Of a stretch of DNA of 64,000 bases, positions 13,608 through 31,287 are shown one piece after another. Below the pieces are notes generated by a model that was not told where the DNA came from, searched no databases, and worked only from the letters and a program-made list of their open reading frames with translations. A program made the position numbers and the translations under genes. The DNA lies in contig CP179889.1 of the NCBI GenBank assembly GCA_047456315.1, positions 56,966 to 120,965 of the forward strand, read 5' to 3'. Positions within the stretch are counted from its first letter, which is position 1. Each line of letters starts with the position of its first letter. Source of the DNA: Candidatus Nealsonbacteria bacterium (GTDB lineage: Bacteria; Patescibacteriota; Minisyncoccia; Minisyncoccales; JANBVM01).

Positions 13608-13630
13608 AACTATATATTTACATTCTATCA

Positions 13631-13800
13631 AAAAACCGCCTATTAAGCGATTTTATCTTAGCTCAGGCGGTAGGATTCGAACCCGCCTCGGTCGCCCTGT
13701 ATGCATAGGCGTCTCGGTCTCTCGAACAGTGCGCAAGATTGATGGAGACCCTGGACGATTTTCGAATCTTCAAGAAGGAAATTATTAGCAAGCGCCCGAA
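13631..13800 (-). ncRNA. GC-rich structured repeat element, copy A. It has a tRNA-T-arm-like core and an intrinsic-terminator-like 3' hairpin.
   Basis: Minus-strand sequence ...TTCGAGAGACCGAGACGCCTATGCATACAGGGCGACCGAGGCGGGTTCGAATCCTACCGCCTGAGC..., followed by CCGCC...GGCGG plus TTTTTT. It shares this core with 5 other loci in the window. Confidence 0.5.
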
Positions 13801-13834
13801 ATTTTAGGTATTCCTCTTTCCTATTTCTGGCTTC

Positions 13835-14413
13835 TTATTGAGAAGTCTCGATAGGAAGATTGTTTGGTGGAGAAACGATTTTCTTTCGTCTTTTAGTTCG
13901 CTCCTTAAGATACTTTTTTAAAAAGAATCCTCCCGAAAGAATCGCTAAAATTGCGAATATCCAAATTGAATTTTGGGAAATAAATCTTAAAACAGAAGCT
14001 AAAAATATTAGATTTTCTTCCTCAACATTTAATTGCACGGGGACTTTAACTCCAGGATTAACGCTAAAACTCTGACGATCTAATGGTTTAGCTAAAACCG
14101 AGAGATTAATCGCTTTTCTCCCCTCTTCTTTAGCCAAAAAAGTAATTTTAACTTCTTTATTTTCTCCTGCCTCTAAACGGAAATTGCTTGGCTCAATTTT
14201 TATCCACTCATTTAATTCATCAGGAAAAACCTGAAAAATTCCCGCTTCTTGGGAAATGTTATAAATTAAAATTTTAGCTTTTTTAGGCTGACCAACCTCT
14301 AATTCTAAGTCTAAAAATGAAGGTTTAGTTCCGATTCCAATAGCTAAAGCTGAATCAAAAGAGAAAAGGAAACAAAAAACAAAAAGTAGAATTGTTAAAA
14401 TCTTAAATTTCAT
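13835..14413 (-). CDS. hypothetical secreted/membrane-anchored protein
   Basis: 192 aa with an N-terminal signal peptide and a C-terminal TM plus basic tail. Confidence 0.5.
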   Translation of the reverse strand: MKFKILTILLFVFCFLFSFDSALAIGIGTKPSFLDLELEVGQPKKAKILIYNISQEAGIFQVFPDELNEWIKIEPSNFRLEAGENKEVKITFLAKEEGRKAINLSVLAKPLDRQSFSVNPGVKVPVQLNVEEENLIFLASVLRFISQNSIWIFAILAILSGGFFLKKYLKERTKRRKKIVSPPNNLPIETSQ

Positions 14414-16161
14414 TATTGATTAGCAATTGCCCAAAAAGTTAAATCACCCTCTTTAATTCCAAGATCTGTCCAGCCGGCAGGGATAGTTAATCCGACTAAA
14501 ACATTTTTCTCTGATCCAGTATTAATAATAGTGCTAAATTCTGGCCAATCTAATTCCTCTAAGGTAATATTTTCTCTAAAAATCTGCTCGCCACTAACAA
14601 TTCCCTCAAGATATATCCTGAGATCACCAGTATTAGTAATTACTAATAAATCACTGGCTTGAGCCCCGGGAGCTAATTGACCAAAATCAATCTGATTTTT
14701 GTCAATGATAAAAGCGATTTCTGGAACTGGTGGAGCTGGCTGGATTATCTCTACTCTCAACCCAACATTTTGACTAATTCCTTCTCCGACTAATAAACTT
14801 ACCTGATTAGTTTGGATAAAACCTGATTTTTCAGCATAAACTTGATAAATTCCTAGAGTATTAATGATTAAATCGGCTTCACCATCATTATCAGTGATAA
14901 AAGTCAGACTTCCAACATAAATTATAGCTTCAGCTAAGGGTTTCCATTCAGAATCTTCAAAATATTCCACTTTGGCTTCGAGATTATTTCCTGGATTAAC
15001 CTTTTGACCAGCCAGAGTTAATCTGATAGGTAACCAACCCCATTCACCAAAATACCACAAGACCTCATCGCCCGGTTCTAATGTATAGTCAGCTGCCCCA
15101 ATCATTGGTATTTCATAGTTAACAAAATAAAGCCAGCCAATTAAATCATGAGCTTCTTCTTCATTAATCTTTTTTAAATAAGGTCCCCAACTGGTTTCCT
15201 CAATCAAATAAGTATAGCTACAGACTTGGGCTCCATTTTCAATAATATCTAAGGCAGTAGTTGCTTTTACTTTTGCGTCACAAATATTGTTATTCTCTCC
15301 TTCAATTCTTAAATGATGTAACCTATTTATTGGATAATAATTTTCAGTTAGGGCAATTACTGCATAGGCAGTTAAAATTGGATAATCCTTATCTTCGGAG
15401 GCAATCCATTTAAAAGAGCCATCTGCTTTTTGTAATGATTTTAAGTGATCAACTGGATTTTGATCATTTTTCTGCCAATCGAAAGGATCCTGACCTAATT
15501 TATAAATTGCTGAGATGACCCAACCATCAGAGCCAGAATCGGATGGACCTGCAGGAAGATAAGGAAAACCACCATCATCATTCTGGCTTGATTTTAAATA
15601 ATCAATAGCTTTAATGATTGCTGGATCCTGAGAAGAAATCCCAGCTTCTAACAAAGCCATAATTGCAGCTGCTGTATCATTGGTGTCACTCTGGCCTAAA
15701 AGAGCATAACTCCAGCCACCATTTTCATTTTGATTATTTAAAATGAAATTTTTAGAATCTTGAATGATTTGATCGGAAATACTTTCACCAGCCGAAACTA
15801 AAGCCAAAATTCCCCAGAAATCATCATTTAATAAATCAGGAGAACCAATTTGATTATTTTGATAAAAGCTTTTCAGTTGAGTAACAAAATCAATATTGCT
15901 AAAAGTTTTTGGATTTTCGCCTGCAGCAATTAAGGCCAAAATAGTTTTTTCATAATCGGTGGCTAAGTTGCCTGTAACTTCTTTTAAATGGTTTAGATCT
16001 AAATCTATTTCGCCAGCCGCTACCAAAGCCATTGTTATCCAGGGATCGGGAGTCTGGGCTTTAAGGTAATTGATGGTAGAATTATCTATTTCCGCCAGAC
16101 CTGGTAAAACTAACGAAAAAATTAAGGTTCCTGCCAGAAAAAGTAAGATTGTTTTTTTCAT
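14413..16161 (-). CDS. secreted protein with terpenoid-cyclase/prenyltransferase-like (alpha/alpha toroid) repeats
   Basis: Signal peptide; repeated segments such as NENGGWSYAL, DDGGFPYLP and SDTNDTAAAIMALLEAG resemble PF00432/PF13243-type repeats; the C-terminus is beta-rich. Confidence 0.5.
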   Translation of the reverse strand: MKKTILLFLAGTLIFSLVLPGLAEIDNSTINYLKAQTPDPWITMALVAAGEIDLDLNHLKEVTGNLATDYEKTILALIAAGENPKTFSNIDFVTQLKSFYQNNQIGSPDLLNDDFWGILALVSAGESISDQIIQDSKNFILNNQNENGGWSYALLGQSDTNDTAAAIMALLEAGISSQDPAIIKAIDYLKSSQNDDGGFPYLPAGPSDSGSDGWVISAIYKLGQDPFDWQKNDQNPVDHLKSLQKADGSFKWIASEDKDYPILTAYAVIALTENYYPINRLHHLRIEGENNNICDAKVKATTALDIIENGAQVCSYTYLIEETSWGPYLKKINEEEAHDLIGWLYFVNYEIPMIGAADYTLEPGDEVLWYFGEWGWLPIRLTLAGQKVNPGNNLEAKVEYFEDSEWKPLAEAIIYVGSLTFITDNDGEADLIINTLGIYQVYAEKSGFIQTNQVSLLVGEGISQNVGLRVEIIQPAPPVPEIAFIIDKNQIDFGQLAPGAQASDLLVITNTGDLRIYLEGIVSGEQIFRENITLEELDWPEFSTIINTGSEKNVLVGLTIPAGWTDLGIKEGDLTFWAIANQ

Positions 16162-16445
16162 ATATTTTAAAACCCACTCTCTTCGAGTGGGTCAAATTAT
16201 TTCAAAATTAAAATAACCTTTTTCCCTTAGGCTCGAAGAGAAAATTAAAATTCATGATAGGCAGATCAGTTTTCTGGCTTATCCCATTTTGGGCTTCACA
16301 GCTGCGGCCCAGCGCCTGATTATAACAGGACTTTCCTGACTGTCCCTAAATATTAGGGCTGCCTTTTTTTTATTGTTTCAATTTTATCTTACTTTAGAAA
16401 ATGAACCTGTCAAGTGAATAACTTTGATGGTTTTTAATATAAAAA

Positions 16446-16640
16446 CCCTCGGGCGAAAAATCTCAGCTTTGCAGGCCGGACCCAAACCGGAGGCGGCTCG
16501 GTTGCCCAAACCGAACACAAGCCTGCTCCGGCGGTAGGACTTGAACCCCTCTCGGTCGCCCTAACGCCATAAGCGTCTCGGTTTCTCGAAAGGCTCGCTG
16601 CTGGGCTCCGGGGGCTGGACGAGGTTAGAGCCTGTTTTAT
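16446..16640 (-). ncRNA. GC-rich structured repeat element, copy B
   Basis: Minus strand carries ...TTTCGAGAAACCGAGACGCTTATGGCGTTAGGGCGACCGAGAGGGGTTCAAGTCCTACCGCCGGAGCAGGCTTGTGTTCGG... in strongly GC-rich intergenic DNA. Confidence 0.5.
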
Positions 16641-16842
16641 GACTTTTTCTCAGGTATGAAATAAATAAACCATACAAACCAAACAAGCCAAATGGCTCCT
16701 GAAAAATTTCCACTTAAAAGTCCTTGGATACCCCTTATCCCCATAAATCCGAGAAATCCTAACATCCAATTTTCTCTCATCATAAATATTTTAATTTTAA
16801 ATTTAATTAAAATATTTCAGACCTTTCATTTTCATTCTACCA

Positions 16843-16924
16843 AAAAACCGCCTGATTGGCGATTTTTAATGCGGCTCGGTCGCTCGAACCGAGTACAAGC
16901 CTGCTCCGGCGGTAGGACTCGAAC
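16843..16924 (-). ncRNA. GC-rich structured repeat element, copy C (3' module). It starts immediately after the glyS stop codon.
   Basis: Minus strand GTTCGAGTCCTACCGCCGGAGCAGGCTTGTACTCGGTTCGAGCGACCGAGCCGC...AATCGCCAATCAGGCGGTTTTTT. The 3' part is near-identical to the copy at 25642-25708. Confidence 0.5.
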
Positions 16925-16925
16925 T

Positions 16926-18326
16926 TTAACGCTCAATTTTCTTTTTTAAAAATTCAACTAACTCTTTTATTTTTACTCTAACTTGCTTTGTTGTATCACG
17001 ATCACGAACAGTGACATCATCTTGTTTTAATGAATCATAATCAATAGTAATACAAAATGGGGTTCCTATTTCATCTTGAGAATAATAACGTTTTCCAATA
17101 TTACCTCTATCATCCCAGGCAGTAGAGAATTCTGGCCTCAGTATTTCATAAACCTCTTTTGCTTTCTTAACCAGCTCTTCTTTATTGGCTAACAAAGGAA
17201 ATACTGCTACTTTATATGGAGCTAAATATGGTTTTAGTTTTAAAACAACTCTATCTTCTTTTTTTCCTTTTTCTTCAAAATAACTATCCAGTAAACAAAC
17301 CAGAAACGACCTGTCCATTCCAAAGGTTGGTTCCACTACATGAGGAATAAATTTTTCTTTTGTTTTTTCATCAGTATAACGCAAATCAACTCCTGATTTT
17401 TCCATATGATTCTTCAAATCAAAATCAGTCCTATAAGCTAAACCATAAAGCTCTTTAAAACTACCAAAAGGAAAATTATATTCTAAATCTTCTGTTTTTT
17501 TAGAATAATGAGATCTTTCATCATCTGTGTGTTCCCGCCACCTTAGATTCTTTTTATTTACACCCAAAATTTCAGTTGTCCATTTCCACATTTCTTTTTT
17601 CCAATAATCAAATAAATCCTGCCGTTTTTGTTTTTTAGGATTAAAGAAATATTCAAACTCAGACAGATTAAATTGAAGAGTTCTAAAAATAAAATTACCC
17701 AATGTTATTTCGTTTCTAAAAACAGCACCTGATTGGGCCAAACCAAAAGGTAATTCAGGTGATTGAGAATCTAGAACATTTTTAAAATTAATAAACATTC
17801 CCTGAGCAATCTCTCCCCTTAAATATGCCTTAGACCTGCTTTCATCAACAATACCAATATGAGTTTCAAATAAAAGATTAAATTGTCTTGGCTTTGTCCA
17901 ATTAAAAGCTTTACATGATGGACAAGCAACTTTCTCTTTATCAATAATCTCTTTCATCTTCTCAACACTAAAACCTTCAACTTTTATTTCTTTTCCTTTT
18001 TTCCTAAAATGATCTTCAATTAAATGATCAGCCCTGATTCTGCTTTTGCATTTCTTACAATCAATTAAAACATCAGTAAAACTATCAGTATGACCTGAAG
18101 CCTGCCAGACCTTAGGACTCATAATGATTCCTGAATCAAGGCCATAAATATCACTTCTCTTTTTAACAAAATGTTTCCACCAAAGATTTTTAATATTTCT
18201 CAAAAGCTCAACTCCTAAAGGACCGTAATCATAAGTATTAGCCAGCCCTCCATATATTTCAGAGCCAGGAAAAATAAAGCCTCGTCTTTTTGCTAATGAT
18301 GTAATTTTTGCCATTTTATCAGCCAT
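16926..18326 (-). CDS. glyS: glycyl-tRNA synthetase (alpha2 dimeric type)
   Basis: The N-terminus (MADKMAKITSLAKRRGFIFPGSEIYGGLANTYDYGPLG) is diagnostic of class II alpha2 GlyRS. Confidence 0.92.
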   Translation of the reverse strand: MADKMAKITSLAKRRGFIFPGSEIYGGLANTYDYGPLGVELLRNIKNLWWKHFVKKRSDIYGLDSGIIMSPKVWQASGHTDSFTDVLIDCKKCKSRIRADHLIEDHFRKKGKEIKVEGFSVEKMKEIIDKEKVACPSCKAFNWTKPRQFNLLFETHIGIVDESRSKAYLRGEIAQGMFINFKNVLDSQSPELPFGLAQSGAVFRNEITLGNFIFRTLQFNLSEFEYFFNPKKQKRQDLFDYWKKEMWKWTTEILGVNKKNLRWREHTDDERSHYSKKTEDLEYNFPFGSFKELYGLAYRTDFDLKNHMEKSGVDLRYTDEKTKEKFIPHVVEPTFGMDRSFLVCLLDSYFEEKGKKEDRVVLKLKPYLAPYKVAVFPLLANKEELVKKAKEVYEILRPEFSTAWDDRGNIGKRYYSQDEIGTPFCITIDYDSLKQDDVTVRDRDTTKQVRVKIKELVEFLKKKIER

Positions 18327-18328
18327 AT

Positions 18329-19990
18329 TTATTGAACCGCTCCGTTAGTTACTGTTGGATCATCGGGTAAAGTGGTATTAAGAGCTGAAGTTGAACCCTC
18401 AATTATGGCCTGAGTCCAGCTGTCTTCAGCCGTGATCTGTGCTTTATTAATTATATTTGGAATTAGACCTCTCTGATATGCAGCAGGAGTAAAGGTAACC
18501 TGGAAAGCAATTGTCAGAGGCTGCTGGGTAACCCCAATCCCTCTTTCTAAATCTCCTGCCAGCCAGACAATTTCTCTTGACTGAGAATCAAAGGTAAATC
18601 TCTCAAGCTCTGGTTCTGGAAAAACTCTGCCAGTCAATTCTATGTTTTGAGGCAAGGTTGCTTTTACTTTTGCGTTTTTCACATCTGAATAATAATTCCT
18701 AATATGCCACATAATCGTATAAGTAGTAGCTTGGCCTACTTGAGGCGGAACAGGACCAGAATTACCAAAAACCTCATCCTGAAAATATGCTTTTTGGTCT
18801 ATTCCAAGCTTTGAACCAATTTTTGTAACAAATTCTTCTTTAACCTGCCCAATAAATACTTTATTCTTTAAGACAGGGTTTTTAACACTGCCCAAGTCAT
18901 CTTTTAATTTTATGAAGAAATCAACCTTGCCCTCTTCCATTGGAATCAAGTATTGAAGGTCTGGAACCCTTCTCCAGTCAAAAACAATAGAATTATCTCC
19001 TGCCTGAAAAGCTCCGTAATCAGACTTTATTGTTTGAAAATCAAAAGCTTCTCCTTCTAATTGATTAACCATAAACAAATTACTGACACTATCTTCCCCC
19101 ACGTTTTTAAAGTAAATCTCATAGTGAAGCCAATCACCAGGCACAGCCACATATTGAGGATTACTGTTGATTTCTTGTCTGATATAAAGAGAATGCCTGA
19201 CCATTTCCACCCCTTTTATAGCTTCTTTTAGAATAATGAATTCACCATTTTTCCAGACACCTAGCTCAGCTTTAAAAACTTTTGCTTCCCCTAAGTCTCC
19301 AGAAAGCCTGCCTGATATCTCAATTCTTCCTCCCTCTGATTTGTTTAAAACAGGAATTTCCCATTCTGTCTGCTCAATTGATTTAGGAGTGGAGTTAATA
19401 AACTCAAAACCATAAGGATATTCAATCTGACACCTTAAATTAGTTAAAAGATGCTCAATATTTGAAAAATAATTAATGCGAAAAATAAAATCCTTGCCTG
19501 ATGCAACCTTAGAAGGCAAATCAAAATCAAATGTCAGGGGAGCTGATTTAATCTGACTGGTAAACTCAGAAGATGACTGGTACCTTGCTTTTAAGTCCTT
19601 TGGCTGATAGCTCAAAGATGCTTTGGTAATTTTAATATCTCCCTCTTTTCCCAAAATACTTATCTTGAATGAAAATGTCTTTTCTTCTCCTGGATAAATT
19701 GCCTCGCCCAATTCTTCTGGACCTAAAATCTGTCTTTCAAAAAATTCTCCGTCCTTTATAGAATATTCAGGCGCTTCAAAAACAAGCTCCGGGTTGTCTA
19801 AACGAAACTCTCCCTTGTTCTGGTACCTGACAACATATTCCACTTCTTCTCCTAAAGTAATTTCAGACGGCCCCAAAATATCCAATCTTAAAAGTTCTTT
19901 TGAATAAACATTCTTTTGCCAATTCCAAGCAAACCAGATTGCTCCTGATAATATGACTGCAATAACTAAATAATTTAAAATCTTTTTCAT
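18329..19990 (-). CDS. hypothetical membrane-anchored extracellular protein
   Basis: 553 aa with an N-terminal TM and a long beta-rich ectodomain. Confidence 0.5.
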   Translation of the reverse strand: MKKILNYLVIAVILSGAIWFAWNWQKNVYSKELLRLDILGPSEITLGEEVEYVVRYQNKGEFRLDNPELVFEAPEYSIKDGEFFERQILGPEELGEAIYPGEEKTFSFKISILGKEGDIKITKASLSYQPKDLKARYQSSSEFTSQIKSAPLTFDFDLPSKVASGKDFIFRINYFSNIEHLLTNLRCQIEYPYGFEFINSTPKSIEQTEWEIPVLNKSEGGRIEISGRLSGDLGEAKVFKAELGVWKNGEFIILKEAIKGVEMVRHSLYIRQEINSNPQYVAVPGDWLHYEIYFKNVGEDSVSNLFMVNQLEGEAFDFQTIKSDYGAFQAGDNSIVFDWRRVPDLQYLIPMEEGKVDFFIKLKDDLGSVKNPVLKNKVFIGQVKEEFVTKIGSKLGIDQKAYFQDEVFGNSGPVPPQVGQATTYTIMWHIRNYYSDVKNAKVKATLPQNIELTGRVFPEPELERFTFDSQSREIVWLAGDLERGIGVTQQPLTIAFQVTFTPAAYQRGLIPNIINKAQITAEDSWTQAIIEGSTSALNTTLPDDPTVTNGAVQ

Positions 19991-19995
19991 AATAA

Positions 19996-20724: not shown

Positions 20725-20730
20725 TTAAAT

Positions 20731-21144
20731 CTATTTTTCTCCTAAGGCGTTCTTTAAAGTTTTGATCTTTTTCTCTATCCTCCATTTTTCCTTAGGATTC
20801 CTGTACTGCTCTTTTTGTAAATCTTTTATCACCTTTATTAATTTCTGTCTAGTTATGTGGGTTCCGTACTTCTGATGGGGGAAAATCTCTTTTTCCAACT
20901 CAACTCTTTCTTTTTCTTTTAAACCATGCTTAAAAAGAGACTGGCTTCTTAATCTCTGCCTAAGTTCTGATCTTGTAAGATGGCCCTTGCTCCCCCAGAC
21001 GCCTTTATCTACTCCCGGCTTTTTAATATCTGGTCTGGTTTCTGGTTTTTTTAATCTTACTGGTAAGCCATATTTTCTTGAGGAGCCTGACGATTCACCC
21101 CACATCTGTCGTCCGAATTGTCCACTTTTGTTTTCTAAAACCAT
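20731..21144 (-). CDS. hypothetical basic protein
   Basis: 137-aa ORF, lysine/arginine-rich, located in the ileS-recO-glyS operon. Confidence 0.4.
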   Translation of the reverse strand: MVLENKSGQFGRQMWGESSGSSRKYGLPVRLKKPETRPDIKKPGVDKGVWGSKGHLTRSELRQRLRSQSLFKHGLKEKERVELEKEIFPHQKYGTHITRQKLIKVIKDLQKEQYRNPKEKWRIEKKIKTLKNALGEK

Positions 21145-21159
21145 AATTATATATATAAA

Positions 21160-24100
21160 TTAGCTTCCGACCTTTTTAATAAATAACTGCAGTTTCTGGC
21201 CGTTAATAATAACCTGTTTTCCTTTTTTCAATTCTTTAACTAAATCCAGGTCCTTTGCCTTTGTTTCTTTGTTAATCATCTTTTCTTTTCTTAGCAACAG
21301 CTCGCTCATATCATGCTCTGCCTTGAATTGAATTATAATAACATCTTTTGGAGTTAGTTTCCTGCTCTTTCTCATTTCTTGAATGTTTCTAATAACCTCT
21401 CTTGTTATTCCCTGCTCTTGCAGTGATTTAGTGATTTCTGTGTTTAGTTTTATCTGTTCTCCAAAACCAATGTCTAAAACATTGACTTCCTTTTTAATTA
21501 AATCTAAAAGCTCTTTTTCATTTTTTAATTCTTTATCTTTGATTGTTAATTCTTGCAGAGCCTGTCTTACTTTTATTTGAGCTTTTGCTCTTTCAGCTAA
21601 ACCTAGTTTTACTATTTCTCTTGCTTTTTCCATCTTTTTATTCAATTCCTCATCAATAGATTTTTTAGTTGCTTTAGGCCAATCCTCTAAATGAATTGAT
21701 TCTTTTGTTTCTAATCCTGATTTTTTAAAATCCTGATATATATATTCAGTAAAAAAAGGAATAAAGGGAGCTGATAATTTTATTGTTTGAAAGATTACAA
21801 AACTCAGAGTTCCAGCAGCATCTCTTAATTCTTCTTCATTCTCAGGCTGCTGAAATCTTTTCCTTGACCTTCTGATGTACCACAAAGAAAGTTCATTCAT
21901 AACAAACTTTTCAATACTTCTGGCTGCACCGGTTATATCATAACTTTCCAGCAATTTAGTGGTTTTTACAACCAACTCATTAAGTTTAGAAATAATCCAT
22001 TTGTCTAAAATATGCTTGGAGCAGGGATTTTCAAAACTCAAGAACTCATCATCAGCATAAGTTTTTAAAAATATATAAGAATTCCATAAAGGAAGAATGA
22101 ATTTTCTTAAAACATTTTCAGGATCTTTCTCCGAGAATAGCTTAGAATCACCAGGATGACTAGAAGTGTAAAATGACCACCTTAAGGCATCAGTTGAGTA
22201 TTTTTCAATAATATACCAGGGATCAATTATATTTCCTTTTGATTTTGACATTTTTTCACCTTTTTCATCCAAAATATGGCCCAAAGAAACAACGTTTTTA
22301 TATGCTGGCCCTTTTCCAAGCAAAGTAGAAATAGCAAGCAAAGTATAAAACCAGCCCCTAGTCTGGTCTATTGCCTCGCAGATATAATCAGCAGGAAACT
22401 GCTTGTTTTCGTCAATCAGTTTTCTATTCTCAAAAGGATAATGATATTGAGCAAAAGGCATTGCTCCTGAATCAAACCAGCAGTCAATTACTTCTTCAAC
22501 TCTTTCCATTAAAGCTTGGCAGCTTGGACACTGAAACTTTACATTATCAATAAAAGGCCTGTGCAAATCCAACTCTAAGTTTTTATTAAAAGGCAATATC
22601 CTAAACTCTATGTTTTCTAATTTGCCTGTTTTTGTTCTATTTCCTTTTTCCCGCCACTTTAAAATCTTTTCAAGCGACCATCCTTCTAAGGTTTTCTTTA
22701 AAATAGCTAAAGGAAGTCCATGAGAAATAATTAAAATATTCTTTCCTTTGTATTTCTCATCAGTTTCCTTTAAGAAACTGTACATTCTTTTTTTAATATC
22801 TCTTACACTTTCACCTTTTGGAGTTTTTGTTTCTGTTAAACTTCCTTGTTTTTTAAAATAATCCCAAACTAATTTTGGCGCCTTGCCGTTAAAAATACCA
22901 ACATTAAACTCCCTTATTTTTTTGCTGAATTTAACTGGAGCTTTGGTTATTTCAGCTATAATCTCAGCAGTTTGTTTTGTTCTTAATAAGTCAGAAGAGA
23001 AAATAAGGTCCAAGCCCTGTTTTTCCAATTTATCTCCTACTTTTTTTGATTCTTCTTTCCCTTTATCAGTTAAAGGGCATTGAAATTTCTCAGGCCAGCA
23101 CGATGTAACTCCTTTCACTTGTTTTACACTTTCACCATGACGAACTGTAAAATAATTATTATTAGTGAACCTCTGCTTCAACAAATCATCAACACCGCCA
23201 ATTACCACCTGGTTTTTACAATGAGCGCACTGCCAGATAGGAAGAGGGGTTCCCCAATATCTTTCTCTTGAAATTGCCCAGTCTTTAACCTCTTTTAACC
23301 ATCCGCCAAATCTTCCTTTTTTAAGATAAGATGGATACCAATTTATCTTTAAATTATTAGCAATTAAGTCCTTTTTAACTTTTGTCATTTCTATAAACCA
23401 GCTCTTTTTTGCGTAATAAAGAAGCGGTGTCTTGCATCTCCAGCAAAATGGATAATCATGTTCATAAAGTTCTTGCTTGAACAACAACCCTCTTTCTTCT
23501 AAATCTTCAATTATCAATGGGTCAGCTTCTTTGAAATACATTCTTGCCCATTTTTCAACATTTAATCTAAATCTCCCCTCGTCATCAATATTCAATAAAA
23601 TTGGCAGTTTATTCTTTTTACCAGCTTCCATATCATCTATGCCATAAGCAGGAGCGATATGAACAAGGCCTGTTCCTTCATCTAAAGAAACAAAATCTCC
23701 CCCAATAACCTTGTAAGCATTTCTTGAAACTTCATCTTCCGCTGGATACAGAACTTCGTACCTTAAATTAAACAAATCCTTTCCTTTGAATTCCTGGATA
23801 ATTTCACCTTCAAGCCCTAATTCCTTAATTCTTTCTTTTGCTAATATTAAATACTCCTCATTAATTTTGATTTTTGCATAAATAAATTTAGGATTTACTG
23901 CCACAGCTACATTTCCAGGCAATGTCCAGGGAGTAGTTGTCCATACTAAAAAAGAAGTATTCTTAAAATTAGGGCTGATAATCTTAAGCTTGATAAAAAC
24001 TGATGGTTCTTTTATCTTTTTATACCCTTGAGCCACTTCATGAGACGAAAGAGGAGTCCCGCATCTGGGACAATAGGGAACAACCTTAAAGTCCTGAATT

Positions 24101-24597
24101 AAGAGCTTTTTCTCCCAGATTTGTTTTAATATCCACCATAATGACTCAACATATTCAGCATTATAGGTAATGTAAGGATTATTAATATCAACCCAGTAAC
24201 CGATTTTCTCTGTTAAATCTACCCAGTCCTTTGTAAAATTCCAAACAGATGTTTTACATTTTTTATTGAACTTAGAAATACCATATTTTTCAATGTCTTT
24301 TTTTGATTTAAGCCCTAGTTTTTTTTCAATCTGAAGTTCAACAGGAAGACCATGGGTGTCCCAGCCACCTTTTCTTAAAACCCTGAAACCCTTCATTGTC
24401 TTGTATCTGCAGATTATGTCTTTAAAAATTCTGGCTAAAACATGATGAAGTCCTGGAGGCGCATTAGCAGTAGGAGGGCCTTCATAAAACACAAAATCAC
24501 GAGCTTTAGCTCGTTGTTTTATGCTTTTTTCAAAGATTTTATTATCTTTCCAGAATTTTAAAATTTTCTTCTCTGTTTTAGTAAAATTGAAATTCAT
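21160..24597 (-). CDS. ileS: isoleucyl-tRNA synthetase (type 2) with an inserted histidine-phosphatase (PGAM-like) domain
   Basis: 1145 aa. It has a HIGH-region, the RERYWGTPLPIW and DLHRPFID motifs, WFDSGAMPFAQ and KMSKSKGN. About 200 aa between residues ~478-675 carry RHGES...SSDLLRTKQTAEII...ISHG. Confidence 0.93.
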   Translation of the reverse strand: MNFNFTKTEKKILKFWKDNKIFEKSIKQRAKARDFVFYEGPPTANAPPGLHHVLARIFKDIICRYKTMKGFRVLRKGGWDTHGLPVELQIEKKLGLKSKKDIEKYGISKFNKKCKTSVWNFTKDWVDLTEKIGYWVDINNPYITYNAEYVESLWWILKQIWEKKLLIQDFKVVPYCPRCGTPLSSHEVAQGYKKIKEPSVFIKLKIISPNFKNTSFLVWTTTPWTLPGNVAVAVNPKFIYAKIKINEEYLILAKERIKELGLEGEIIQEFKGKDLFNLRYEVLYPAEDEVSRNAYKVIGGDFVSLDEGTGLVHIAPAYGIDDMEAGKKNKLPILLNIDDEGRFRLNVEKWARMYFKEADPLIIEDLEERGLLFKQELYEHDYPFCWRCKTPLLYYAKKSWFIEMTKVKKDLIANNLKINWYPSYLKKGRFGGWLKEVKDWAISRERYWGTPLPIWQCAHCKNQVVIGGVDDLLKQRFTNNNYFTVRHGESVKQVKGVTSCWPEKFQCPLTDKGKEESKKVGDKLEKQGLDLIFSSDLLRTKQTAEIIAEITKAPVKFSKKIREFNVGIFNGKAPKLVWDYFKKQGSLTETKTPKGESVRDIKKRMYSFLKETDEKYKGKNILIISHGLPLAILKKTLEGWSLEKILKWREKGNRTKTGKLENIEFRILPFNKNLELDLHRPFIDNVKFQCPSCQALMERVEEVIDCWFDSGAMPFAQYHYPFENRKLIDENKQFPADYICEAIDQTRGWFYTLLAISTLLGKGPAYKNVVSLGHILDEKGEKMSKSKGNIIDPWYIIEKYSTDALRWSFYTSSHPGDSKLFSEKDPENVLRKFILPLWNSYIFLKTYADDEFLSFENPCSKHILDKWIISKLNELVVKTTKLLESYDITGAARSIEKFVMNELSLWYIRRSRKRFQQPENEEELRDAAGTLSFVIFQTIKLSAPFIPFFTEYIYQDFKKSGLETKESIHLEDWPKATKKSIDEELNKKMEKAREIVKLGLAERAKAQIKVRQALQELTIKDKELKNEKELLDLIKKEVNVLDIGFGEQIKLNTEITKSLQEQGITREVIRNIQEMRKSRKLTPKDVIIIQFKAEHDMSELLLRKEKMINKETKAKDLDLVKELKKGKQVIINGQKLQLFIKKVGS

Positions 24598-24647
24598 ATA
24601 TATCTTAAAATATCATTTTAAGAGTAAAAATGCAATCAAACTTAATA

Positions 24648-24845
24648 GTTCGAGTCCTACCGCCGGAGCCAAGCTGTGAGGCTTTCGAGAGACCGATTTG
24701 CCTCATATTTTTGGAAAAAGTTCGAAAAAAAATCGCCCTACCCCGACTGGAATCGAACTTTGTTCGAGACAGGGAGTAGCGGTTTGAATCCTAGCCCCGC
24801 AGAATTTGAAGCCCGAGATTGTTCCTCGGGTTTGACTTTTTAAAA
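24648..24845 (+). ncRNA. GC-rich structured repeat element, copy D
   Basis: GTTCGAGTCCTACCGCCGGAGC...GGCTTTCGAGAGACCGA... followed by a second tRNA-like segment (AGCGGTTTGAATCCTAGCCCCGCAG) and a CCCGAG/CTCGGG hairpin plus T-run. Confidence 0.45.
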
Positions 24846-24914
24846 AATGCTTTGTAAGATTTATTTGATAAACAAGCAAAAAGATCTTTACCAATAAAAA
24901 AGAGGTAGAAAAAA

Positions 24915-25508
24915 ATGGATTTGGTTAAAAGTGAAGTTAAGAAAGAATTCCATAGAGGTGCGTGGGAATCTCCCGGTTTACGTGATGATCAAATTAGAAA
25001 CTACTTTGAGGAATTAGCTAAAAAGAAGGAAATAGAAATTTTCTCTGTTTCTATTGATGATAGGAAAACCTTAAAAAATGATAAGGACAAAAGAATAGTT
25101 GAAGTCAAAAAAGGGGCAACCTTGCACCCCAAAGAAAAATTAGAGAGTTATTTGAATTACATAATTAAAACTCGGCAGGGGGTAATGTATACTTTAGAGA
25201 TTAAAGGTGGTTATTTCTGTATCGGTGCAGAAGGACCTGGCAGCGCAAGCTGTAGTTGTTGTCTGGATAGGCTTAACAGAAAGCTTGATTTGAGGAAAGT
25301 AAAAGAAACAAGCGGTGGGTTATCTCTTCCCAGTTTGTCTTTCCCTAAGGATACAATAGTTGCTAAGTTTTATTTTTCTTACCATGAATATGATCCTTAT
25401 CATTCCAAGCAATGGACATCGTCTGTTTATTTTTACGGGAAAAGAAGTGTTAGAAACAAGCTATTCAAGAATGTATATGAATTCTTTAAAGAAAATTTAA
25501 AAATCTAA
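24915..25508 (+). CDS. hypothetical protein with a Cys cluster (CIGAEGPGSASCSCC)
   Basis: 197-aa ORF. Confidence 0.45.
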   Translation: MDLVKSEVKKEFHRGAWESPGLRDDQIRNYFEELAKKKEIEIFSVSIDDRKTLKNDKDKRIVEVKKGATLHPKEKLESYLNYIIKTRQGVMYTLEIKGGYFCIGAEGPGSASCSCCLDRLNRKLDLRKVKETSGGLSLPSLSFPKDTIVAKFYFSYHEYDPYHSKQWTSSVYFYGKRSVRNKLFKNVYEFFKENLKI

Positions 25509-25599
25509 TTTTTTTAATATCGTTGAGCCAAGAACTTTATTCTTGGTTTTTTTATTCAGACATTTGCTAAAATATACTCCAAATCCCCAAGACTTTCCC

Positions 25600-25708
25600 T
25601 AATTTCTGCCCAATCTACGGTTCTAAACGCGTCCAATAGGGGGAGCAGGCTAGTGCTCGGTTCGAGCGACCGAGAGGCATAAAAATCGCCATTAGGGCGG
25701 TTTTTTTT
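25600..25708 (+). ncRNA. GC-rich structured repeat element, copy E (3' module)
   Basis: GGAGCAGGCTAGTGCTCGGTTCGAGCGACCGAGAGGCATAAAAATCGCCATTAGGGCGGTTTTTTTT; near-identical to the 3' part of copy C. Confidence 0.45.
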
Positions 25709-25746
25709 GTTACTTTTTTCTCTCTCAATCGTAATATTAAATAGAA
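25709..25746 (+). promoter_or_regulatory. conserved upstream motif (copy 1) preceding the chagasin-like gene
   Basis: GTTACTTTTTTCTCTCTCAATCGTAATATTAAATAGAA lies ~40 nt upstream of the ATG at 25783; a near-identical copy is at 26431-26468. Confidence 0.5.
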
Positions 25747-25782
25747 AGGTCATTAAGACATATAATTAATTATTAAAAGAAT

Positions 25783-26301
25783 ATGTTAAAGCTAATTACT
25801 ACCGTTTTTATTTCATTGCTTATTATTGTCGGTATAAGCTACGGAGCAAACCATTATATCGTTGCTCCAGCAACAGAAAACACAAAAGACGCTGGCATTC
25901 AAATAATAGAAAAGGAGGTTGGCGAAGATTTTGAAATAGTCTTGGAGGCCAATCCCACTACCGGCTATCAGTGGACAGTGGAGTTTGATGAAGAATTTAT
26001 TGAATTGGTTGACAGAAACTATATTGTCCAGGAGCCAACCTTTTCAAAAGATGCAATGGTTGAATCTGTTATGGCTTCCAGAGATGGAGAAATTCCGACC
26101 GAGGATCTTCCTGATGGAGCAAGAGAGATTATTGACAGCGAGATTGAAGAGGGAACAATAGGGTTAGTCGGAGCAGGCGGCCAGGAATTCTTCAAATTCC
26201 TTGCCCTGAAAAAAGGAGATGTAGAAATAAGGTTTTCTTACGAGAGATCTTGGGAGGAAGAACCTATTAAAATCCTGACCTACAAAGTGATAATCAAGTA
26301 G
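25783..26301 (+). CDS. chagasin-family (MEROPS I42) cysteine-protease inhibitor, secreted
   Basis: Signal/TM N-terminus, the NPTTGYQW signature motif, a GAGG loop; size of 172 aa; followed by an AGCAGGG/CCCTGCT terminator at 26310-26340. Confidence 0.75.
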   Translation: MLKLITTVFISLLIIVGISYGANHYIVAPATENTKDAGIQIIEKEVGEDFEIVLEANPTTGYQWTVEFDEEFIELVDRNYIVQEPTFSKDAMVESVMASRDGEIPTEDLPDGAREIIDSEIEEGTIGLVGAGGQEFFKFLALKKGDVEIRFSYERSWEEEPIKILTYKVIIK

Positions 26302-26362
26302 GATTACAAAAAGCAGGGATAAGAGCCCTGCTTTTTGCTCCAAGATAGTGTAGGATACAGTA

Positions 26363-26465
26363 ATGGAGCAAGAAATTGTTGAGCAATGCAAAAAAGGAAA
26401 TTTGGAAAAGTTTGAAAAACTCTACAACAGTGTTACCTTTTTCTCTTTCAATCGTTATATTAAGT
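26363..26465 (+). pseudogene. possible remnant of an ECF/sigma-70 family sigma factor N-terminus
   Basis: 34-aa ORF beginning MEQEIVEQCKKGNLEKFEKLYNS resembles the start of sigma-70 region 2. It terminates inside the conserved upstream motif of the next gene. Confidence 0.25.
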
Positions 26466-26468
26466 AGA
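26431..26468 (+). promoter_or_regulatory. conserved upstream motif (copy 2) preceding the Cys-rich protein gene
   Basis: GTTACCTTTTTCTCTTTCAATCGTTATATTAAGTAGAG lies ~40 nt upstream of the ATG at 26510. Confidence 0.5.
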
Positions 26469-26509
26469 GGAATCGAAAAATATATAGAAACTTAATTTTT
26501 AAAAATAAT

Positions 26510-27550
26510 ATGTCTAAAATAATCATTGCAATCATTTTTATAATAATTGGAATTGTAGCAGGATTAGGTTATTGGTTTTATCAATCAATGTCCGAAGAGC
26601 TAACTGAAATAGAACAAGCCTGTGTACACTCTGGAGGAACAATCTCCACATCATTGTGTTGTAAAGCAACTGGTGATTTTCCTAACCTGTGCCTTGTTGG
26701 TCCTTGTGGTTGTTCACCAGATAATAGTCATCAGGTAAAGATTTGCGATTGCGGACCTGATAAATGTTTTGATGGAAGTGAGTGCGTATCTTTAGATGAA
26801 GTTTCAGTTCTTCTTGAAAGCATTGAACAAGAAACTGGGATAGATTTTTCAGAAGCACAACCAGTTGATTTTAAATGGGTAGTTAAAGTAACTCCAAAAG
26901 TAGAAGAGGAAGCTGTGTCTGGGAAAGGATTTGAAGCTGAACGTATATCAAGCGAGCAGTACGATAGTGTTGAGTCTTTTCTCATAGATAGAGGTTTTAA
27001 AAAGGACCTTTATAATATAGCTGATGGCACTTTTGTTGGATTGAAAGGATATAAAAAAGACCAGATTATTTGTACTGTTTCTGGAGGGTCTACTCCGCAA
27101 GAACCTGATATCAATGATGTAACAGTGAAATGCGGGAAGTTAGAGATAATTATTGATCTGGAAGAACTCTCTCAGTGTGCAAAAGATGGAGAAACATTCT
27201 CAACAATCGATGATGGATACCCAGTCCGTTGCTGTGAAGGTCTAAAAGAATGGTCACCTATTCCAGATACACGTTTTTCAATCGCAGATGTATGTTATGA
27301 AGTTGGGTTACCATTGGAATCTAACATAGGACTTTGTATAAAGTGTGGGGACGGGGTTTGTGAAAACCATCCGCAATATGATGAAAATCCATGCAATTGT
27401 CCTGAAGATTGCGCAGGAAAGGACAAATCGCATTTTTCCAGTATAGAAGAATTTTGCCAGAGCAATGACTGGAAAATGTCTCTTTCCAAAGCCTGCGAAG
27501 AACAAGAACCTATTAAGGGTTCTCCAATATGTGAATTATGCGCTTTTTAA
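26510..27550 (+). CDS. Cys-rich membrane-anchored secreted protein with an internal duplication
   Basis: 346 aa with an N-terminal TM. There are two Cys-rich modules, each beginning CxxSGG(T/S) (CVHSGGT... and CTVSGGS...), and a CGDGVCENHPQYDENPCNCPEDC block. Confidence 0.6.
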   Translation: MSKIIIAIIFIIIGIVAGLGYWFYQSMSEELTEIEQACVHSGGTISTSLCCKATGDFPNLCLVGPCGCSPDNSHQVKICDCGPDKCFDGSECVSLDEVSVLLESIEQETGIDFSEAQPVDFKWVVKVTPKVEEEAVSGKGFEAERISSEQYDSVESFLIDRGFKKDLYNIADGTFVGLKGYKKDQIICTVSGGSTPQEPDINDVTVKCGKLEIIIDLEELSQCAKDGETFSTIDDGYPVRCCEGLKEWSPIPDTRFSIADVCYEVGLPLESNIGLCIKCGDGVCENHPQYDENPCNCPEDCAGKDKSHFSSIEEFCQSNDWKMSLSKACEEQEPIKGSPICELCAF

Positions 27551-27559
27551 AGAAATAGT

Positions 27560-27680
27560 GAGTAACGAGGCGTGGAATACCTGCTCTAGAGATTGAACTA
27601 TTTCCGAGACCGAGCCGTCCATCCTGCTAGGGCGACTGAGAGGGGTTCGAGTCCTACCGCCGGAGCAGGCGGTTTTTAAA
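27560..27680 (+). ncRNA. GC-rich structured repeat element, copy F, ending in an intrinsic terminator
   Basis: TTTCCGAGACCGAGCCGTCCATCCTGCTAGGGCGACTGAGAGGGGTTCGAGTCCTACCGCCGGAGCAGGCGGTTTTT. CCTGCT pairs with AGCAGG, and CCGCC...GGCGG plus T-run forms the terminator. Confidence 0.5.
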
Positions 27681-30461: not shown

Positions 30462-30500
30462 TAATTTAAGCTTATCCGATTTTTCTGCTAAAATCAAAGT

Positions 30501-31285: not shown

Positions 31286-31287
31286 CT

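What the first reader, a model, noticed from the sequence alone, without database searches (positions are those of the whole stretch)
13631..27680. Family of at least six GC-rich, tRNA-T-arm-like structured repeat elements scattered through intergenic regions on both strands
Copies lie at 13631-13800(-), 16446-16640(-), 16843-16924(-), 24648-24845(+), 25600-25708(+) and 27560-27680(+). They share a conserved core: TTYCGAGARACCGAGMCGYC, then N7-9, then AGGGCGACYGAGRSGGGTTCRARTCCTACCGCCKGAGCAGG. Some also carry a second module, GCAGGCTTGTRYTCGGTTCGAGCGACCGAG, then AAAATCGCC, then N4-6, then GGCGG and a T-run. They are strongly GC-rich in a ~33% GC genome, contain nested complementary segments (e.g. 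CCTGCT...AGCAGG and GGCG...CGCC in copy F), and most end in a GC hairpin plus T-run. The GGTTCGARTCC stretch mimics a tRNA T-loop. I could not fold any copy into a canonical cloverleaf, because the T-stem and acceptor do not pair and there is no D-arm. Sharing acceptor-side sequence across copies also argues against ordinary tRNA genes. The copies sit next to aaRS genes (glyS, ileS, argS) and to the secreted-protein island. Possible identities are a paralogous small-RNA family, tRNA-derived SINE/MITE-like mobile elements, or a novel cis-regulatory RNA.
Basis: seen in the sequence. Interest (0 to 1): 0.75.

Follow-up and report, generated by a model that had tools for sequence, protein, structure and literature searches.

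The report
tRNA-Asn tail copies bounding mobile cassettes
The six GC-rich repeats are most likely not RNA genes: they are copies of the last 22 bases of the asparagine tRNA gene plus its trailer and terminator, and they mark the edges of small, strain-variable gene cassettes that move between a few hot spots in these tiny CPR (Nealsonbacteria-like) genomes.

Summary
Five copies carry an exact 22-mer (0 expected by chance), and a sixth carries a diverged version.

The "T-arm-like" core is the true 3' end of tRNA-Asn(GUU), running from the T-loop to the discriminator plus C. The "second module" is the native trailer hairpin/terminator of that tRNA gene in related genomes.

ARAGORN and Rfam find no tRNA or known RNA family at these loci. 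Only one terminator-type hairpin shows covariation.

All copies lie in two strain-variable hot spots: GlyRS|M16 peptidase and ArgRS|IleRS. Their layout reads attL-like, then cargo, then a junction, then cargo, then attR-like.

Synteny with sister genomes breaks exactly at the end of the core (GGAGC|). A perfect 22-bp direct repeat flanks a 3-kb insert that two relatives lack.

The same cassettes sit directly after the real tRNA-Asn in another Nealsonbacteria genome. There they are 88-92% identical, against about 72% for core DNA.

One relative has a large serine recombinase gene overlapping the tRNA-Asn 3' end. No recombinase is present in the window.

Best reading: these are att-type boundary sequences of trans-mobilised, integrase-less mini-islands. 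This is a new variant of tRNA-gene-targeted integration.

The parts
13623..13800 (-). Copy A, attR-like. In sense order: M0-like remnant (~13745-13770), module M1 (13683-13726, two GACCGAG repeats), tRNA-Asn 3' core (13661-13682), then hairpin AAAATCGC..GGCGG plus a T-run plus GATAGAAT (M4, 13623-13654), ending about 15 nt before the M16 peptidase ATG.
   Evidence: Homology to the sister genome L165 starts exactly at 13661. M1b plus core is 100% identical to L165 14559-14619. The orthologous site in L135 has M0+M3 instead, followed by the same M4/promoter.
16446..16640 (-). Copy B, junction (attP-like). In sense order: M0 (16605-16636), M1 (16547-16590), core (16525-16546), trailer hairpin variant M3' (16493-16528), then a GC hairpin plus T-run (16446-16490). 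It lies just upstream of an AdoCbl-riboswitch-like element.
16835..16924 (-). Copy C, attL-like. The core begins inside the T-loop, 2 nt after the GlyRS stop codon (16903-16924). It is followed by trailer hairpin M3 (16869-16906) and by the M4 terminator plus TCGCCA-17-TGgTAGAAT promoter-like site (16835-16866).
   Evidence: GlyRS plus core is conserved in L165, L166, L167, L168 and L170, and all homology stops at the end of the core.
24648..24845 (+). Copy D, attL-like. The core, with CCA encoded, begins in the T-loop (24648-24669). It is followed by an M1a hairpin, then M5 (further degenerate T-loop/acceptor-like units), then the terminator 24809-24833.
   Evidence: The same core+M1a+M5 string follows a genuine tRNA-Asn in L158. 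Conserved in L165.
25560..25708 (+). Copy E, junction. Extended M0 variant (25560-25646, ending GGGGGAGC), then trailer hairpin M3 (25643-25679), then M4 terminator (25681-25705).
   Evidence: The left breakpoint of the chagasin block lies at G|GAGCAGGC. The antisense strand reads as the conserved peptide LPLLDAFRTVDW...
27551..27680 (+). Copy F, attR-like. M1 (27601-27644), then the core (27645-27666). The ACCGCC of the core pairs with GGCGGT of the ArgRS terminator to form the terminator 27656-27673.
   Evidence: Homology to L165 ends exactly at 27666/27667 on both sides. The junction sits inside the ArgRS terminator loop.
13683..16902 (-). Hot spot 1 cargo, between GlyRS and the M16 peptidase. 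It holds a small membrane ORF (16645-16785), an AdoCbl-like riboswitch (16215-16357), a DUF4430/prenyltransferase-like protein (14413-16161) and a 192-aa secreted protein (13835-14413).
   Evidence: The gene content between GlyRS and M16 differs in L165, L167 and L170.
24670..27644 (+). Hot spot 2 cargo, between IleRS and ArgRS. It holds a 197-aa ORF, a chagasin-type inhibitor and a 346-aa Cys-rich protein. It is flanked by the perfect 22-bp direct repeat at 24648-24669 and 27645-27666.
   Evidence: In L167 and L170, ArgRS and IleRS are 90 nt apart. In L165 the chagasin-p346 block is at hot spot 1. In L189 the chagasin cassette lies after tRNA-Asn.

Best explanation
The elements are mosaic boundary (att-type) sequences of small, integrase-less gene cassettes or islets. 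They are not RNA genes.

**Shown**
1. The shared core is the last 22 nt of tRNA-Asn(GUU): T-loop, 3' T-stem strand, 3' acceptor strand, discriminator G and C.
2. The second module (AGGC + hairpin GGUUCG[AGNGAC]CGAGCC + terminator) is the native 3' trailer/terminator of the tRNA-Asn gene in related genomes.
3. The copies occur only in two strain-variable hot spots, all co-oriented with their cargo. The order is core+trailer (left end), then M0 or M1+core+trailer (internal junctions), then M1+core (right end). This is the arrangement expected for a tandem array of elements integrated at a tRNA 3' end.
4. Synteny between close genomes breaks exactly after GGAGC, or inside the T-loop.
5. The same cassettes occur after the genuine tRNA-Asn, after GlyRS, or between ArgRS and IleRS in different genomes. 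They are much more similar to each other than the core genome is.

**Inferred**
- Cassettes are moved by site-specific recombination at the T-arm/acceptor DNA of tRNA-Asn and at copies of it.
- The recombinase is supplied in trans. The best candidate is a large serine recombinase like the one that overlaps the tRNA-Asn 3' end in relative L188.
- The GC-rich hairpins act as transcription terminators.
- The T-run+GGTAGAAT piece acts as the promoter of the next cassette.
For: **The core is the tRNA-Asn 3' end.** In a scan of genomes the 22-mer sits at the 3' end of ARAGORN-called tRNA-Asn genes across many phyla.

**The second module is the tRNA's own trailer.** In L126/157, L134, L138, L148, L164 and L172 an intact tRNA-Asn is followed directly by AGGCTAGTGC...M3. 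In L172 the M3 hairpin plus T8 is the tRNA's own terminator.

**A split tRNA-Asn exists in the sister genome.** It has a decayed tRNA-Asn 5' part ending in the T-loop (..GTAGGTTCGA|). This is the complement of window copies C and D, which begin |GTTCGAGTCC.

**Breakpoints fall at the core.**
- Homology stops at the last base of the core after GlyRS in five genome comparisons.
- It also stops there at W27666 and W13661, and at the tRNA end in L188 vs L189.

**Insertion and empty site.** A 3.1-kb ArgRS-IleRS interval with a perfect 22-bp direct repeat compares with a 90-nt interval in L167 and L170.

**Cassette mobility.**
- The chagasin-p346 block sits at different hot spots and in different orientations in the window and in L165. 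Both of its ends lie at GAGC junctions.
- The small-ORF and chagasin cassettes lie directly after tRNA-Asn in L189, at 88% and 92% identity, against 72% for dnaG-rpoD DNA.
- An identical M3-downstream block occurs behind different M0 copies in one metagenome.

**Array geometry.**
- Core-type sites have a median spacing of 1.28 kb.
- In 22 of 24 loci with more than one site, all sites are on one strand.
- The upstream gene is on the same strand 73 times against 7.

**Candidate enzyme.** A 535-aa Resolvase+Recombinase+Zn_ribbon_recom gene overlaps the tRNA-Asn 3' end by 13 nt in L188 and is followed by mobile-element genes.

**Phage junction.** GC-rich phage DNA starts right after the GGAGC of an M0 site in L171.

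**General precedent.** Partial tRNA-Asn 3' pieces are common on viral contigs. The displaced-fragment concept is described in PMC4383910.
Against: - No recombinase or transposase was found in the 64-kb window (Pfam). A crude motif scan of about 443 kb of element-bearing CPR loci also found none.
- The empty ArgRS-IleRS site in L167 and L170 contains no core-like attB sequence. That insertion is therefore not a textbook attP x attB event.
- Serine integrases normally need only a 2-bp overlap and do not create 22-bp direct repeats.
- Breakpoints at repeat edges are also what homologous recombination between dispersed repeats would give.
- Several copies stand in tandem without cargo (copy D, L143).
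- The M0 variant has a conserved antisense peptide-like pattern that this model does not explain.
- The L171 junction could be an assembly chimera.
Confidence: 0.55

Rival explanations
1. This is a passive mosaic repeat family of the REP/BIME/BOX type. Pieces of the tRNA-Asn 3' end and trailer were duplicated locally. They now persist as intergenic terminator/promoter 'punctuation'. The rearrangements arise from ordinary homologous or illegitimate recombination between the repeats, with no dedicated site-specific recombinase.
For: - Modules are shuffled in many combinations.
- At the orthologous site upstream of the M16 peptidase, the window has M1+core while L135 has M0+M3.
- One exchange breakpoint lies inside M1, at GACCGAG|.
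- No recombinase is found next to the elements.
- RecO is encoded in the region.
- The M4 module looks like a terminator plus an extended -10 promoter for the next gene.
Against: - Some joined sites share only about 16 of 23 nt (M0y versus core A), which is too short for RecA-type exchange.
- The left edge of truncated copies falls in the T-loop and the right edge at the tRNA end. These are the classic limits of an integrase identity block.
- Cassettes are 88-92% identical between genomes whose core DNA is 72% identical, which needs horizontal transfer plus targeted insertion.
- A recombinase-bearing element and a phage abut the same junction.
Confidence: 0.25
2. The elements act at the RNA level. 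They are 3'-UTR or stand-alone small RNAs carrying a tRNA-Asn-like 3' domain. That domain would serve processing (RNase Z/P-like cleavage after the discriminator), stabilisation or regulation. The association with variable genes would be secondary.
For: - Strong co-orientation with the upstream gene: 73 against 7.
- Every copy ends in a terminator-like hairpin.
- The M3/M1a hairpin keeps pairing through GC<->CG and GC<->UA double changes. Its G-U pairs occur on the sense strand only. The covariation score is 0.172 against 0.123+-0.013, with 0 of 500 shuffles reaching it.
- The conserved block boundary coincides with the RNase Z-type cleavage position of a CCA-less tRNA precursor.
- RtcB is encoded in the window.
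Against: - No tRNA-like fold: the 5' acceptor strand, D arm and anticodon arm are missing, and the T-stem is unpaired.
- No Rfam family matches at E<=10.
- RNAalifold on 15 M1+core copies gives a covariation term of -0.02.
- MFE folds of the six copies are mutually inconsistent.
- The covarying hairpin is explained as the tRNA-Asn terminator.
- Elements are absent from the other 50 kb of the window, although that region has many operon ends.
Confidence: 0.12
3. The loci are ordinary tRNA genes, simple tRNA pseudogenes, or an assembly artefact.
For: The core is 100% tRNA-Asn sequence. The sister genome does contain a decayed tRNA-Asn.
Against: - ARAGORN finds 0 tRNAs.
- Only the last 22 nt are tRNA-derived.
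- The same architecture is present in independent assemblies, including two closed or near-closed genomes.
Confidence: 0.02

Closest known systems
Genomic islands or prophages integrated into tRNA genes, with a displaced 3' tRNA fragment marking the far end (Islander-type tDNA islands; PMC4383910)
   Same: - The repeat equals the 3' part of a tRNA gene.
- Its left edge is in the T-loop and its right edge is at the tRNA end.
- Direct repeats flank strain-variable DNA.
- Tandem arrays show attL-like, junction and attR-like sites.
- tRNA-Asn is a frequent target.
   Different: - There is no integrase in the islets.
- The islets are only about 0.3-3 kb, one to three genes each.
- The window sites are not at the tRNA gene but at copies of its tail next to GlyRS and between ArgRS and IleRS.
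- The empty site lacks a recognisable attB.
SCC / pseudo-SCC composite arrays at the 3' end of rlmH (orfX) in staphylococci, moved by the large serine recombinases CcrAB (from my own knowledge; not tested here)
   Same: - Arrays of cassettes, many without their own recombinase.
- Each cassette is bounded by a short direct repeat derived from the 3' end of a housekeeping gene.
- Mobilisation is in trans.
- A large serine recombinase sits at the same junction in relative L188.
   Different: - The target here is a tRNA tail, not a protein gene.
- The cassettes are far smaller.
- There are several hot spots per genome.
- No link between the L188 enzyme and the window's cassettes has been shown.
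Integron gene cassettes with attC sites, and attC clusters lacking an integrase (CALINs)
   Same: - Co-oriented arrays of single small accessory genes, each followed by a structured recombination-type repeat.
- Median spacing is 1.3 kb.
- No recombinase is adjacent.
- The same cassette is found in different arrays.
   Different: - No R''-L''/L'-R' inverted-repeat architecture and no GTTRRRY core.
- The cassettes carry their own promoter-like and terminator modules.
- No IntI has been found.
Mosaic intergenic repeats (BIME/REP in E. coli, BOX in pneumococcus)
   Same: - Modular units in variable combinations.
- Intergenic location.
- Orientation bias.
- Hairpins that can terminate transcription or stabilise transcripts.
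   Different: - These elements derive from a tRNA tail and trailer.
- They are confined to variable hot spots rather than being spread genome-wide (0 copies in the other 50 kb of the window).
- They coincide with cassette boundaries.

Membership tests
Functional tRNA gene (tRNA-Asn) | Complete cloverleaf detectable by a tRNA finder or Rfam RF00005 | tested here: not met
   ARAGORN finds 0 genes in the window. There is no tRNA hit at gathering threshold or at E<=10.
Functional tRNA gene (tRNA-Asn) | 5' acceptor strand, D arm and GUU anticodon arm present upstream of the T-arm | tested here: not met
   Alignment to intact tRNA-Asn shows homology only from the T-loop onward.
att site / displaced fragment of a tRNA-gene-targeted integrative element | The repeat is identical to the 3' part of a tRNA gene, running from an anticodon-loop or T-loop crossover to the tRNA 3' end | tested here: met
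   The 22-mer equals the tRNA-Asn 3' end. Copies C and D start in the T-loop. All copies end at GGAGC.
att site / displaced fragment of a tRNA-gene-targeted integrative element | Direct repeats flank DNA that is absent or different in close relatives | tested here: met
   A perfect 22-bp direct repeat flanks 3 kb that L167 and L170 lack. Cargo differs in L165.
att site / displaced fragment of a tRNA-gene-targeted integrative element | An intact target tRNA gene at one end of the array | tested here: not met
   There is no tRNA in the window. This feature is met only in relatives: arrays lie directly downstream of tRNA-Asn in L152, L189 and L172.
att site / displaced fragment of a tRNA-gene-targeted integrative element | An integrase or recombinase gene inside the element next to an att site | tested here: not met
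   None in the window. None in about 443 kb of related loci by motif scan. One large serine recombinase lies at the tRNA-Asn end in L188.
att site / displaced fragment of a tRNA-gene-targeted integrative element | The empty site (attB) carries the core sequence | tested here: not met
   The ArgRS-IleRS spacer of L167 and L170 has no core-like sequence.
Integron attC / cassette array | Imperfect inverted repeats R''-L''...L'-R' with a GTTRRRY core site | tested here: not met
   Inspection of the aligned junctions shows a conserved left part (GTTCKAR...GGAGC) and a variable right part, with no dyad architecture.
Integron attC / cassette array | IntI-type tyrosine recombinase with an attI site | not testable with these tools
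   The whole genome is not available. None was seen in the fetched loci.
MITE / SINE-like transposable element | Terminal inverted repeats and a target-site duplication around a self-contained unit | tested here: not met
   No terminal inverted repeats or target duplications appear in the alignments. Only the 5' edge of M0 and the 3' edge GGAGC are sharp.
Structured small RNA / cis-regulatory RNA family | A conserved secondary structure supported by covariation across the element | tested here: inconclusive
   The M1+core region has a covariation term of -0.02. Only the trailer hairpin covaries, and it serves as the tRNA-Asn terminator in L172.
T-box leader (considered because of the aaRS neighbours) | A match to the T-box model, located upstream of the aaRS gene on the same strand | tested here: not met
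   No T-box hit at E<=10. Copy C is downstream of GlyRS, copy D is on the strand opposite IleRS, and copy F is convergent with ArgRS.

The most novel reading that the evidence does not exclude
Nealsonbacteria-like CPR bacteria may possess an integron-like or SCC-like gene-cassette system. In it, single accessory genes, each with its own terminator/promoter module, would be captured, excised and shuffled in trans by a recombinase, possibly a large serine recombinase. That enzyme would recognise the T-arm/acceptor DNA of tRNA-Asn and degenerate mimics of it (M0). The genuine tRNA-Asn 3' end would be the primary site, and copies next to GlyRS and between ArgRS and IleRS would be secondary sites.
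Probability: 0.3. Interest if true: 0.8.

Novelty: new variant of a known kind. Interest (0 to 1): 0.55.

Why it matters
CPR/Patescibacteria have tiny, streamlined genomes, and little is known about how they gain and exchange accessory genes. In these loci the accessory genes encode secreted proteins, protease inhibitors, nucleases and cell-wall enzymes.

If these tRNA-Asn-tail repeats are the recombination sites of a trans-mobilised cassette system, three things follow:
- They give a concrete, testable mechanism for strain-level variation in these symbionts.
- They give a simple sequence tag (GTTCKAR..GGAGC) for finding the flexible gene pool in metagenomes.
- They may point to a compact recombinase/att pair.

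The result also warns annotators that GC-rich "structured" intergenic repeats in AT-rich genomes can be att scars and terminators rather than new RNA genes.

Tried and rejected
- **Ordinary tRNA, tmRNA, SRP RNA or RNase P RNA.** ARAGORN and Rfam find only the tmRNA at 30946-31288.
- **T-box or other leader of the aaRS genes.** No model hit, and the positions and strands are wrong.
- **A common RNA fold.** Single-sequence MFE folds are inconsistent between copies. RNAalifold on M1+core shows no covariation. The alternative register of the M3 hairpin shows no covariation.
- **Integrase within the islands.** All window ORFs of at least 110 aa were scanned with Pfam. Tyrosine- and serine-recombinase motif scans of related loci found nothing.
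- **Phage origin of the trailer module.** There were 0 hits in viral contigs. There was one M0 hit (L171), with no integrase on the visible part. Phage relatives of the L188 recombinase have no tRNA-Asn core nearby.
- **Antisense protein gene as the source of M0.** Only tiny ORFs of 29-84 aa without conserved starts or domains were found. This remains unresolved.
- **Integron attC architecture.** Not present.
- **The 67-aa ORF fragment after the decayed tRNA-Asn in L172.** No Pfam hit and no similarity to the window's LAGLIDADG ORF.
- **Literature.** Searches found nothing on such repeats in CPR.

Full report

Yes. The degenerate 22-mer GTTCRARTCCTACCGCCKGAGC matches exactly five times in the window. 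The positions are 13661-13682(-), 16525-16546(-), 16903-16924(-), 24648-24669(+) and 27645-27666(+). No match occurred in 100 shuffles.

The flanking motif TTCGAGNGACCGAGNCG occurs five times against 0.01 expected. An unbiased repeat search recovers the same pairs: 54-66 nt at 81-89% identity, plus one perfect 26-mer.

The sixth copy (E, 25600-25708) lacks the 22-mer. It carries a diverged version of it plus the second module.

All copies lie between 13.6 and 27.7 kb. The other 50 kb of the window has none.

ARAGORN finds no tRNA in the whole window. Rfam finds only the tmRNA at 30946-31288, and nothing on the repeats even at E<=10.

**2. What the core is.**

Almost every hit was the 3' end of an ARAGORN-called tRNA-Asn(GTT) gene, in Chloroflexota, Alphaproteobacteria, Patescibacteria and other phyla.

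The "T-arm-like" stretch is therefore a literal copy of the tRNA-Asn tail. It comprises the T-loop, the 3' strand of the T-stem (CCTAC), the 3' acceptor strand (CGCCGGA), the discriminator G and a C. Nothing upstream of the T-loop is tRNA-like. That is why no cloverleaf can be drawn.

**3. What the second module is.**

A metagenome scan with the core/second-module junction returned 44 low-GC contigs. In several of them an intact tRNA-Asn is followed directly by AGGCTAGTGCTCGGTTCGAGCGACCGAG and a terminator. These are L126/L157, L134, L138, L148 and L164.

In the closed genome closest to the window, this hairpin followed by T8 is the tRNA's own intrinsic terminator (L172). That genome is Ca. 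Nealsonbacteria CP179890.1, with GlyRS 99% identical to the window's.

The hairpin, in the register GGUUCG[AGNGAC]CGAGCC, keeps pairing through GC<->CG and GC<->UA double changes. Its covariation score is 0.172 against 0.123+-0.013, and 0 of 500 shuffles reach it. The alternative register shows no covariation.

The last module (M4) is AAAATCGCC-N5-GGCGG, then a T-run, then GGTAGAAT. It is a hairpin terminator followed by a -35/extended -10-like site, 15-30 nt before the next ATG. Its role as a promoter is an inference from the consensus.

**4. Further modules.**

- **M0** (AACAGGTTCTAACATCGTCC-N7-GGAGC) is the commonest partner of the trailer. It has a sharp 5' edge and looks like a diverged core with a 5-nt insertion.
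- **M1** lies upstream of the core in copies A, B and F. It consists of a trailer-like hairpin (M1a) and a conserved stretch carrying a second GACCGAG.
- RNAalifold on 15 M1+core copies gives no covariation: the covariation term is -0.02.
- MFE folds of the six window copies disagree with one another.

**5. Genomic context.**

Pfam annotation gives this gene order:

MetRS - AI-2E - M16 peptidase - [A] - 192 aa - DUF4430 protein - AdoCbl-like riboswitch - [B] - small ORF - [C] - GlyRS - 553 aa - RecO - 137 aa - IleRS - [D] - 197 aa - [E] - chagasin inhibitor - 346 aa - [F] - ArgRS - HMG-CoA reductase.

In relatives the conserved backbone is HMGR-ArgRS-IleRS-..-GlyRS-[variable]-M16-AI2E-MetRS. 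The six copies therefore occupy exactly two variable hot spots.

Their order reads like a tandem array at a tRNA tail:
- Hot spot 1: GlyRS | C (core+trailer) - cargo - B (M0+M1+core+trailer) - cargo - A (M1+core) | M16 promoter.
- Hot spot 2: IleRS upstream | D (core+trailer-like units) - cargo - E (M0+trailer) - cargo - F (M1+core) | ArgRS terminator.

Across 360 kb of related loci, core-type sites lie a median of 87 nt after a stop codon. The upstream gene is on the same strand 73 times against 7. Consecutive sites are a median of 1.28 kb apart. In 22 of 24 loci with more than one site, all sites are on one strand.

**6. Breakpoints.**

After GlyRS, all relatives keep TAAAG|GTTCGAGTCCT..GGAGC. 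Immediately after GGAGC, each genome has a different module and a different gene. BLAST homology ends at that base in every comparison.

Against the 97-98% identical sister genome, homology also ends at W27666/27667 and starts at W13661. Both positions are core ends.

The chagasin-p346 block lies between GlyRS and M16 in the sister genome. In the window it lies inverted between IleRS and ArgRS. Its two ends are at G|GAGCAGGC and GGAGC|.

The M1b+core segment of copy A is 100% identical to the copy that follows p346 in the sister genome, so copies have been exchanged.

In L167 and L170, ArgRS and IleRS are 90 nt apart. The window has 3.1 kb there, bracketed by a perfect 22-bp direct repeat. That empty site shows no core-like sequence, which does not fit a textbook attB.

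**7. The real tRNA-Asn locus.**

In relatives, tRNA-Asn follows dnaG-rpoD and is itself followed by arrays of small genes separated by the same modules (L152, L189, L172).

In the sister genome, a decayed tRNA-Asn 5' part ends inside the T-loop (..TTGTAGGTTCGA|). A second, intact tRNA-Asn lies about 240 nt downstream of it. The truncated piece is the exact complement of window copies C and D, which begin in the T-loop.

In CP179892.1 (L189), the small ORF and the chagasin cassette lie directly after tRNA-Asn. They are 88% and 92% identical to the window copies. The dnaG-rpoD DNA of the two lineages is only 72% identical.

The same cassettes therefore occur at three different hot spots in three genomes. 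They are far more alike than the core genome, which indicates mobility and horizontal exchange.

**8. Candidate enzyme and foreign DNA at the junction.**

In CAYVDD010000001.1 (L188), an intact tRNA-Asn has a 3' end identical to the window core. It is overlapped by 13 nt by the end of a 535-aa large serine recombinase gene (Resolvase, Recombinase, Zn_ribbon_recom). Typical mobile-element genes follow. Homology to L189 stops at the tRNA end.

One viral contig (L171: terminase, portal and capsid genes, 52% GC) ends in 120 nt of AT-rich host-like DNA. That DNA holds a terminator and an M0, and the GC-rich phage DNA starts right after GGAGC. This single case could be a chimera.

No recombinase is encoded in the window. 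Motif scans of about 443 kb of related loci found none.

**9. Interpretation.**

The best-supported reading is that the repeats are att-type boundary sequences of small, recombinase-less cassettes. These cassettes are inserted and exchanged at the tRNA-Asn tail and at copies of that tail. Their hairpins serve as terminators, and M4 serves as the promoter of the next gene.

- Shown: the origin of the core and trailer, the architecture, the breakpoints, and the relocation and high similarity of cassettes.
- Inferred: site-specific recombination, the trans-acting enzyme, and promoter activity.

The main rival is a passive mosaic repeat family rearranged by homologous recombination. It explains module shuffling and the lack of a nearby enzyme. 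It does not explain junctions between sites that share only about 16 of 23 nt, the T-loop and tRNA-end limits, or the cross-lineage similarity of cassettes.

An RNA-level function beyond termination is not excluded, but it has no positive support.

**10. Unexplained.**

The antisense strand of the extended M0 reads as a conserved peptide, LPLLDAFRT[IVL][DN]W..I[KR]EEL..L. Its substitutions are conservative and often synonymous. A search of 5.8 billion proteins finds only 63 tiny ORFs without conserved starts or domains.

The antisense strand of core+trailer ends ..STSLLRR*. This resembles the ..SPTLLRR* end of the L188 recombinase. However, LLRR* is dictated by the core itself, so this is only a lead.

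**11. Novelty and score.**

tRNA-gene-targeted islands with displaced fragments are well known. Four features go beyond the standard picture:
- arrays of one-gene, recombinase-less cassettes;
- bounding by a tRNA-Asn tail or a degenerate mimic of it;
- several hot spots per genome;
- occurrence in a CPR lineage.

I found no description of this in the searchable literature. I rate it a new variant of a known kind, with interest 0.55.

Noticed in passing
window 21160-24597 (-): The IleRS (1145 aa) carries a histidine-phosphatase (His_Phos_1) domain inserted at residues 485-648 inside the synthetase. The insertion is conserved in relatives L165, L167 and L170.
   Followed up: partly
window 16215-16357 (-): AdoCbl riboswitch-like element (45.1 bits, family cut-off 50, E=1.2e-5). 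It lies upstream of a secreted DUF4430/prenyltransferase-like protein (14413-16161), inside the variable island.
   Followed up: no
window 30946-31788 (+): The tmRNA gene (139 bits) is followed immediately by a LAGLIDADG endonuclease ORF (31288-31788), which starts at the last base of the tmRNA. SmpB lies just upstream.
   Followed up: no
window 25560-25646 (antisense) and many related loci: The antisense strand of the extended M0 module encodes a conserved peptide-like pattern, LPLLDAFRTxDW..IKEEL..L. Database hits are only 29-84 aa hypothetical ORFs with non-conserved N-termini. Whether this is coding or a pyrimidine-tract constraint is unresolved.
   Followed up: partly
L172 11289-11656 (CP179890.1, sister genome): Downstream of rpoD lies a decayed tRNA-Asn truncated in the T-loop. 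It is followed by a 67-aa ORF fragment with no Pfam hit, and then by a second, intact tRNA-Asn with a different acceptor stem.
   Followed up: partly
L188 11261-12928 (CAYVDD010000001.1): A large serine recombinase gene overlaps the 3' end of tRNA-Asn by 13 nt. Its 3' coding region contains further GGTTCGAAC motifs. The other end of this element is outside the fetched locus.
   Followed up: partly
L171 14698-14819 (IMGVR_UViG_3300009529_003397): A 52% GC phage contig ends in AT-rich CPR-like DNA with an M0 site. The composition switches right after GGAGC. This is either a prophage junction or an assembly chimera.
   Followed up: partly
window 53168-54607 (-): An RtcB RNA ligase gene is present. 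It could be relevant if any tRNA-like RNA processing or repair occurs, but no link was tested.
   Followed up: no
window 29286-30545 and 37063-40020 (-): Mevalonate-pathway genes are present: HMG-CoA reductase, two GHMP kinases and diphosphomevalonate decarboxylase. A PolX-type polymerase with a PHP domain lies at 33345-35063.
   Followed up: no
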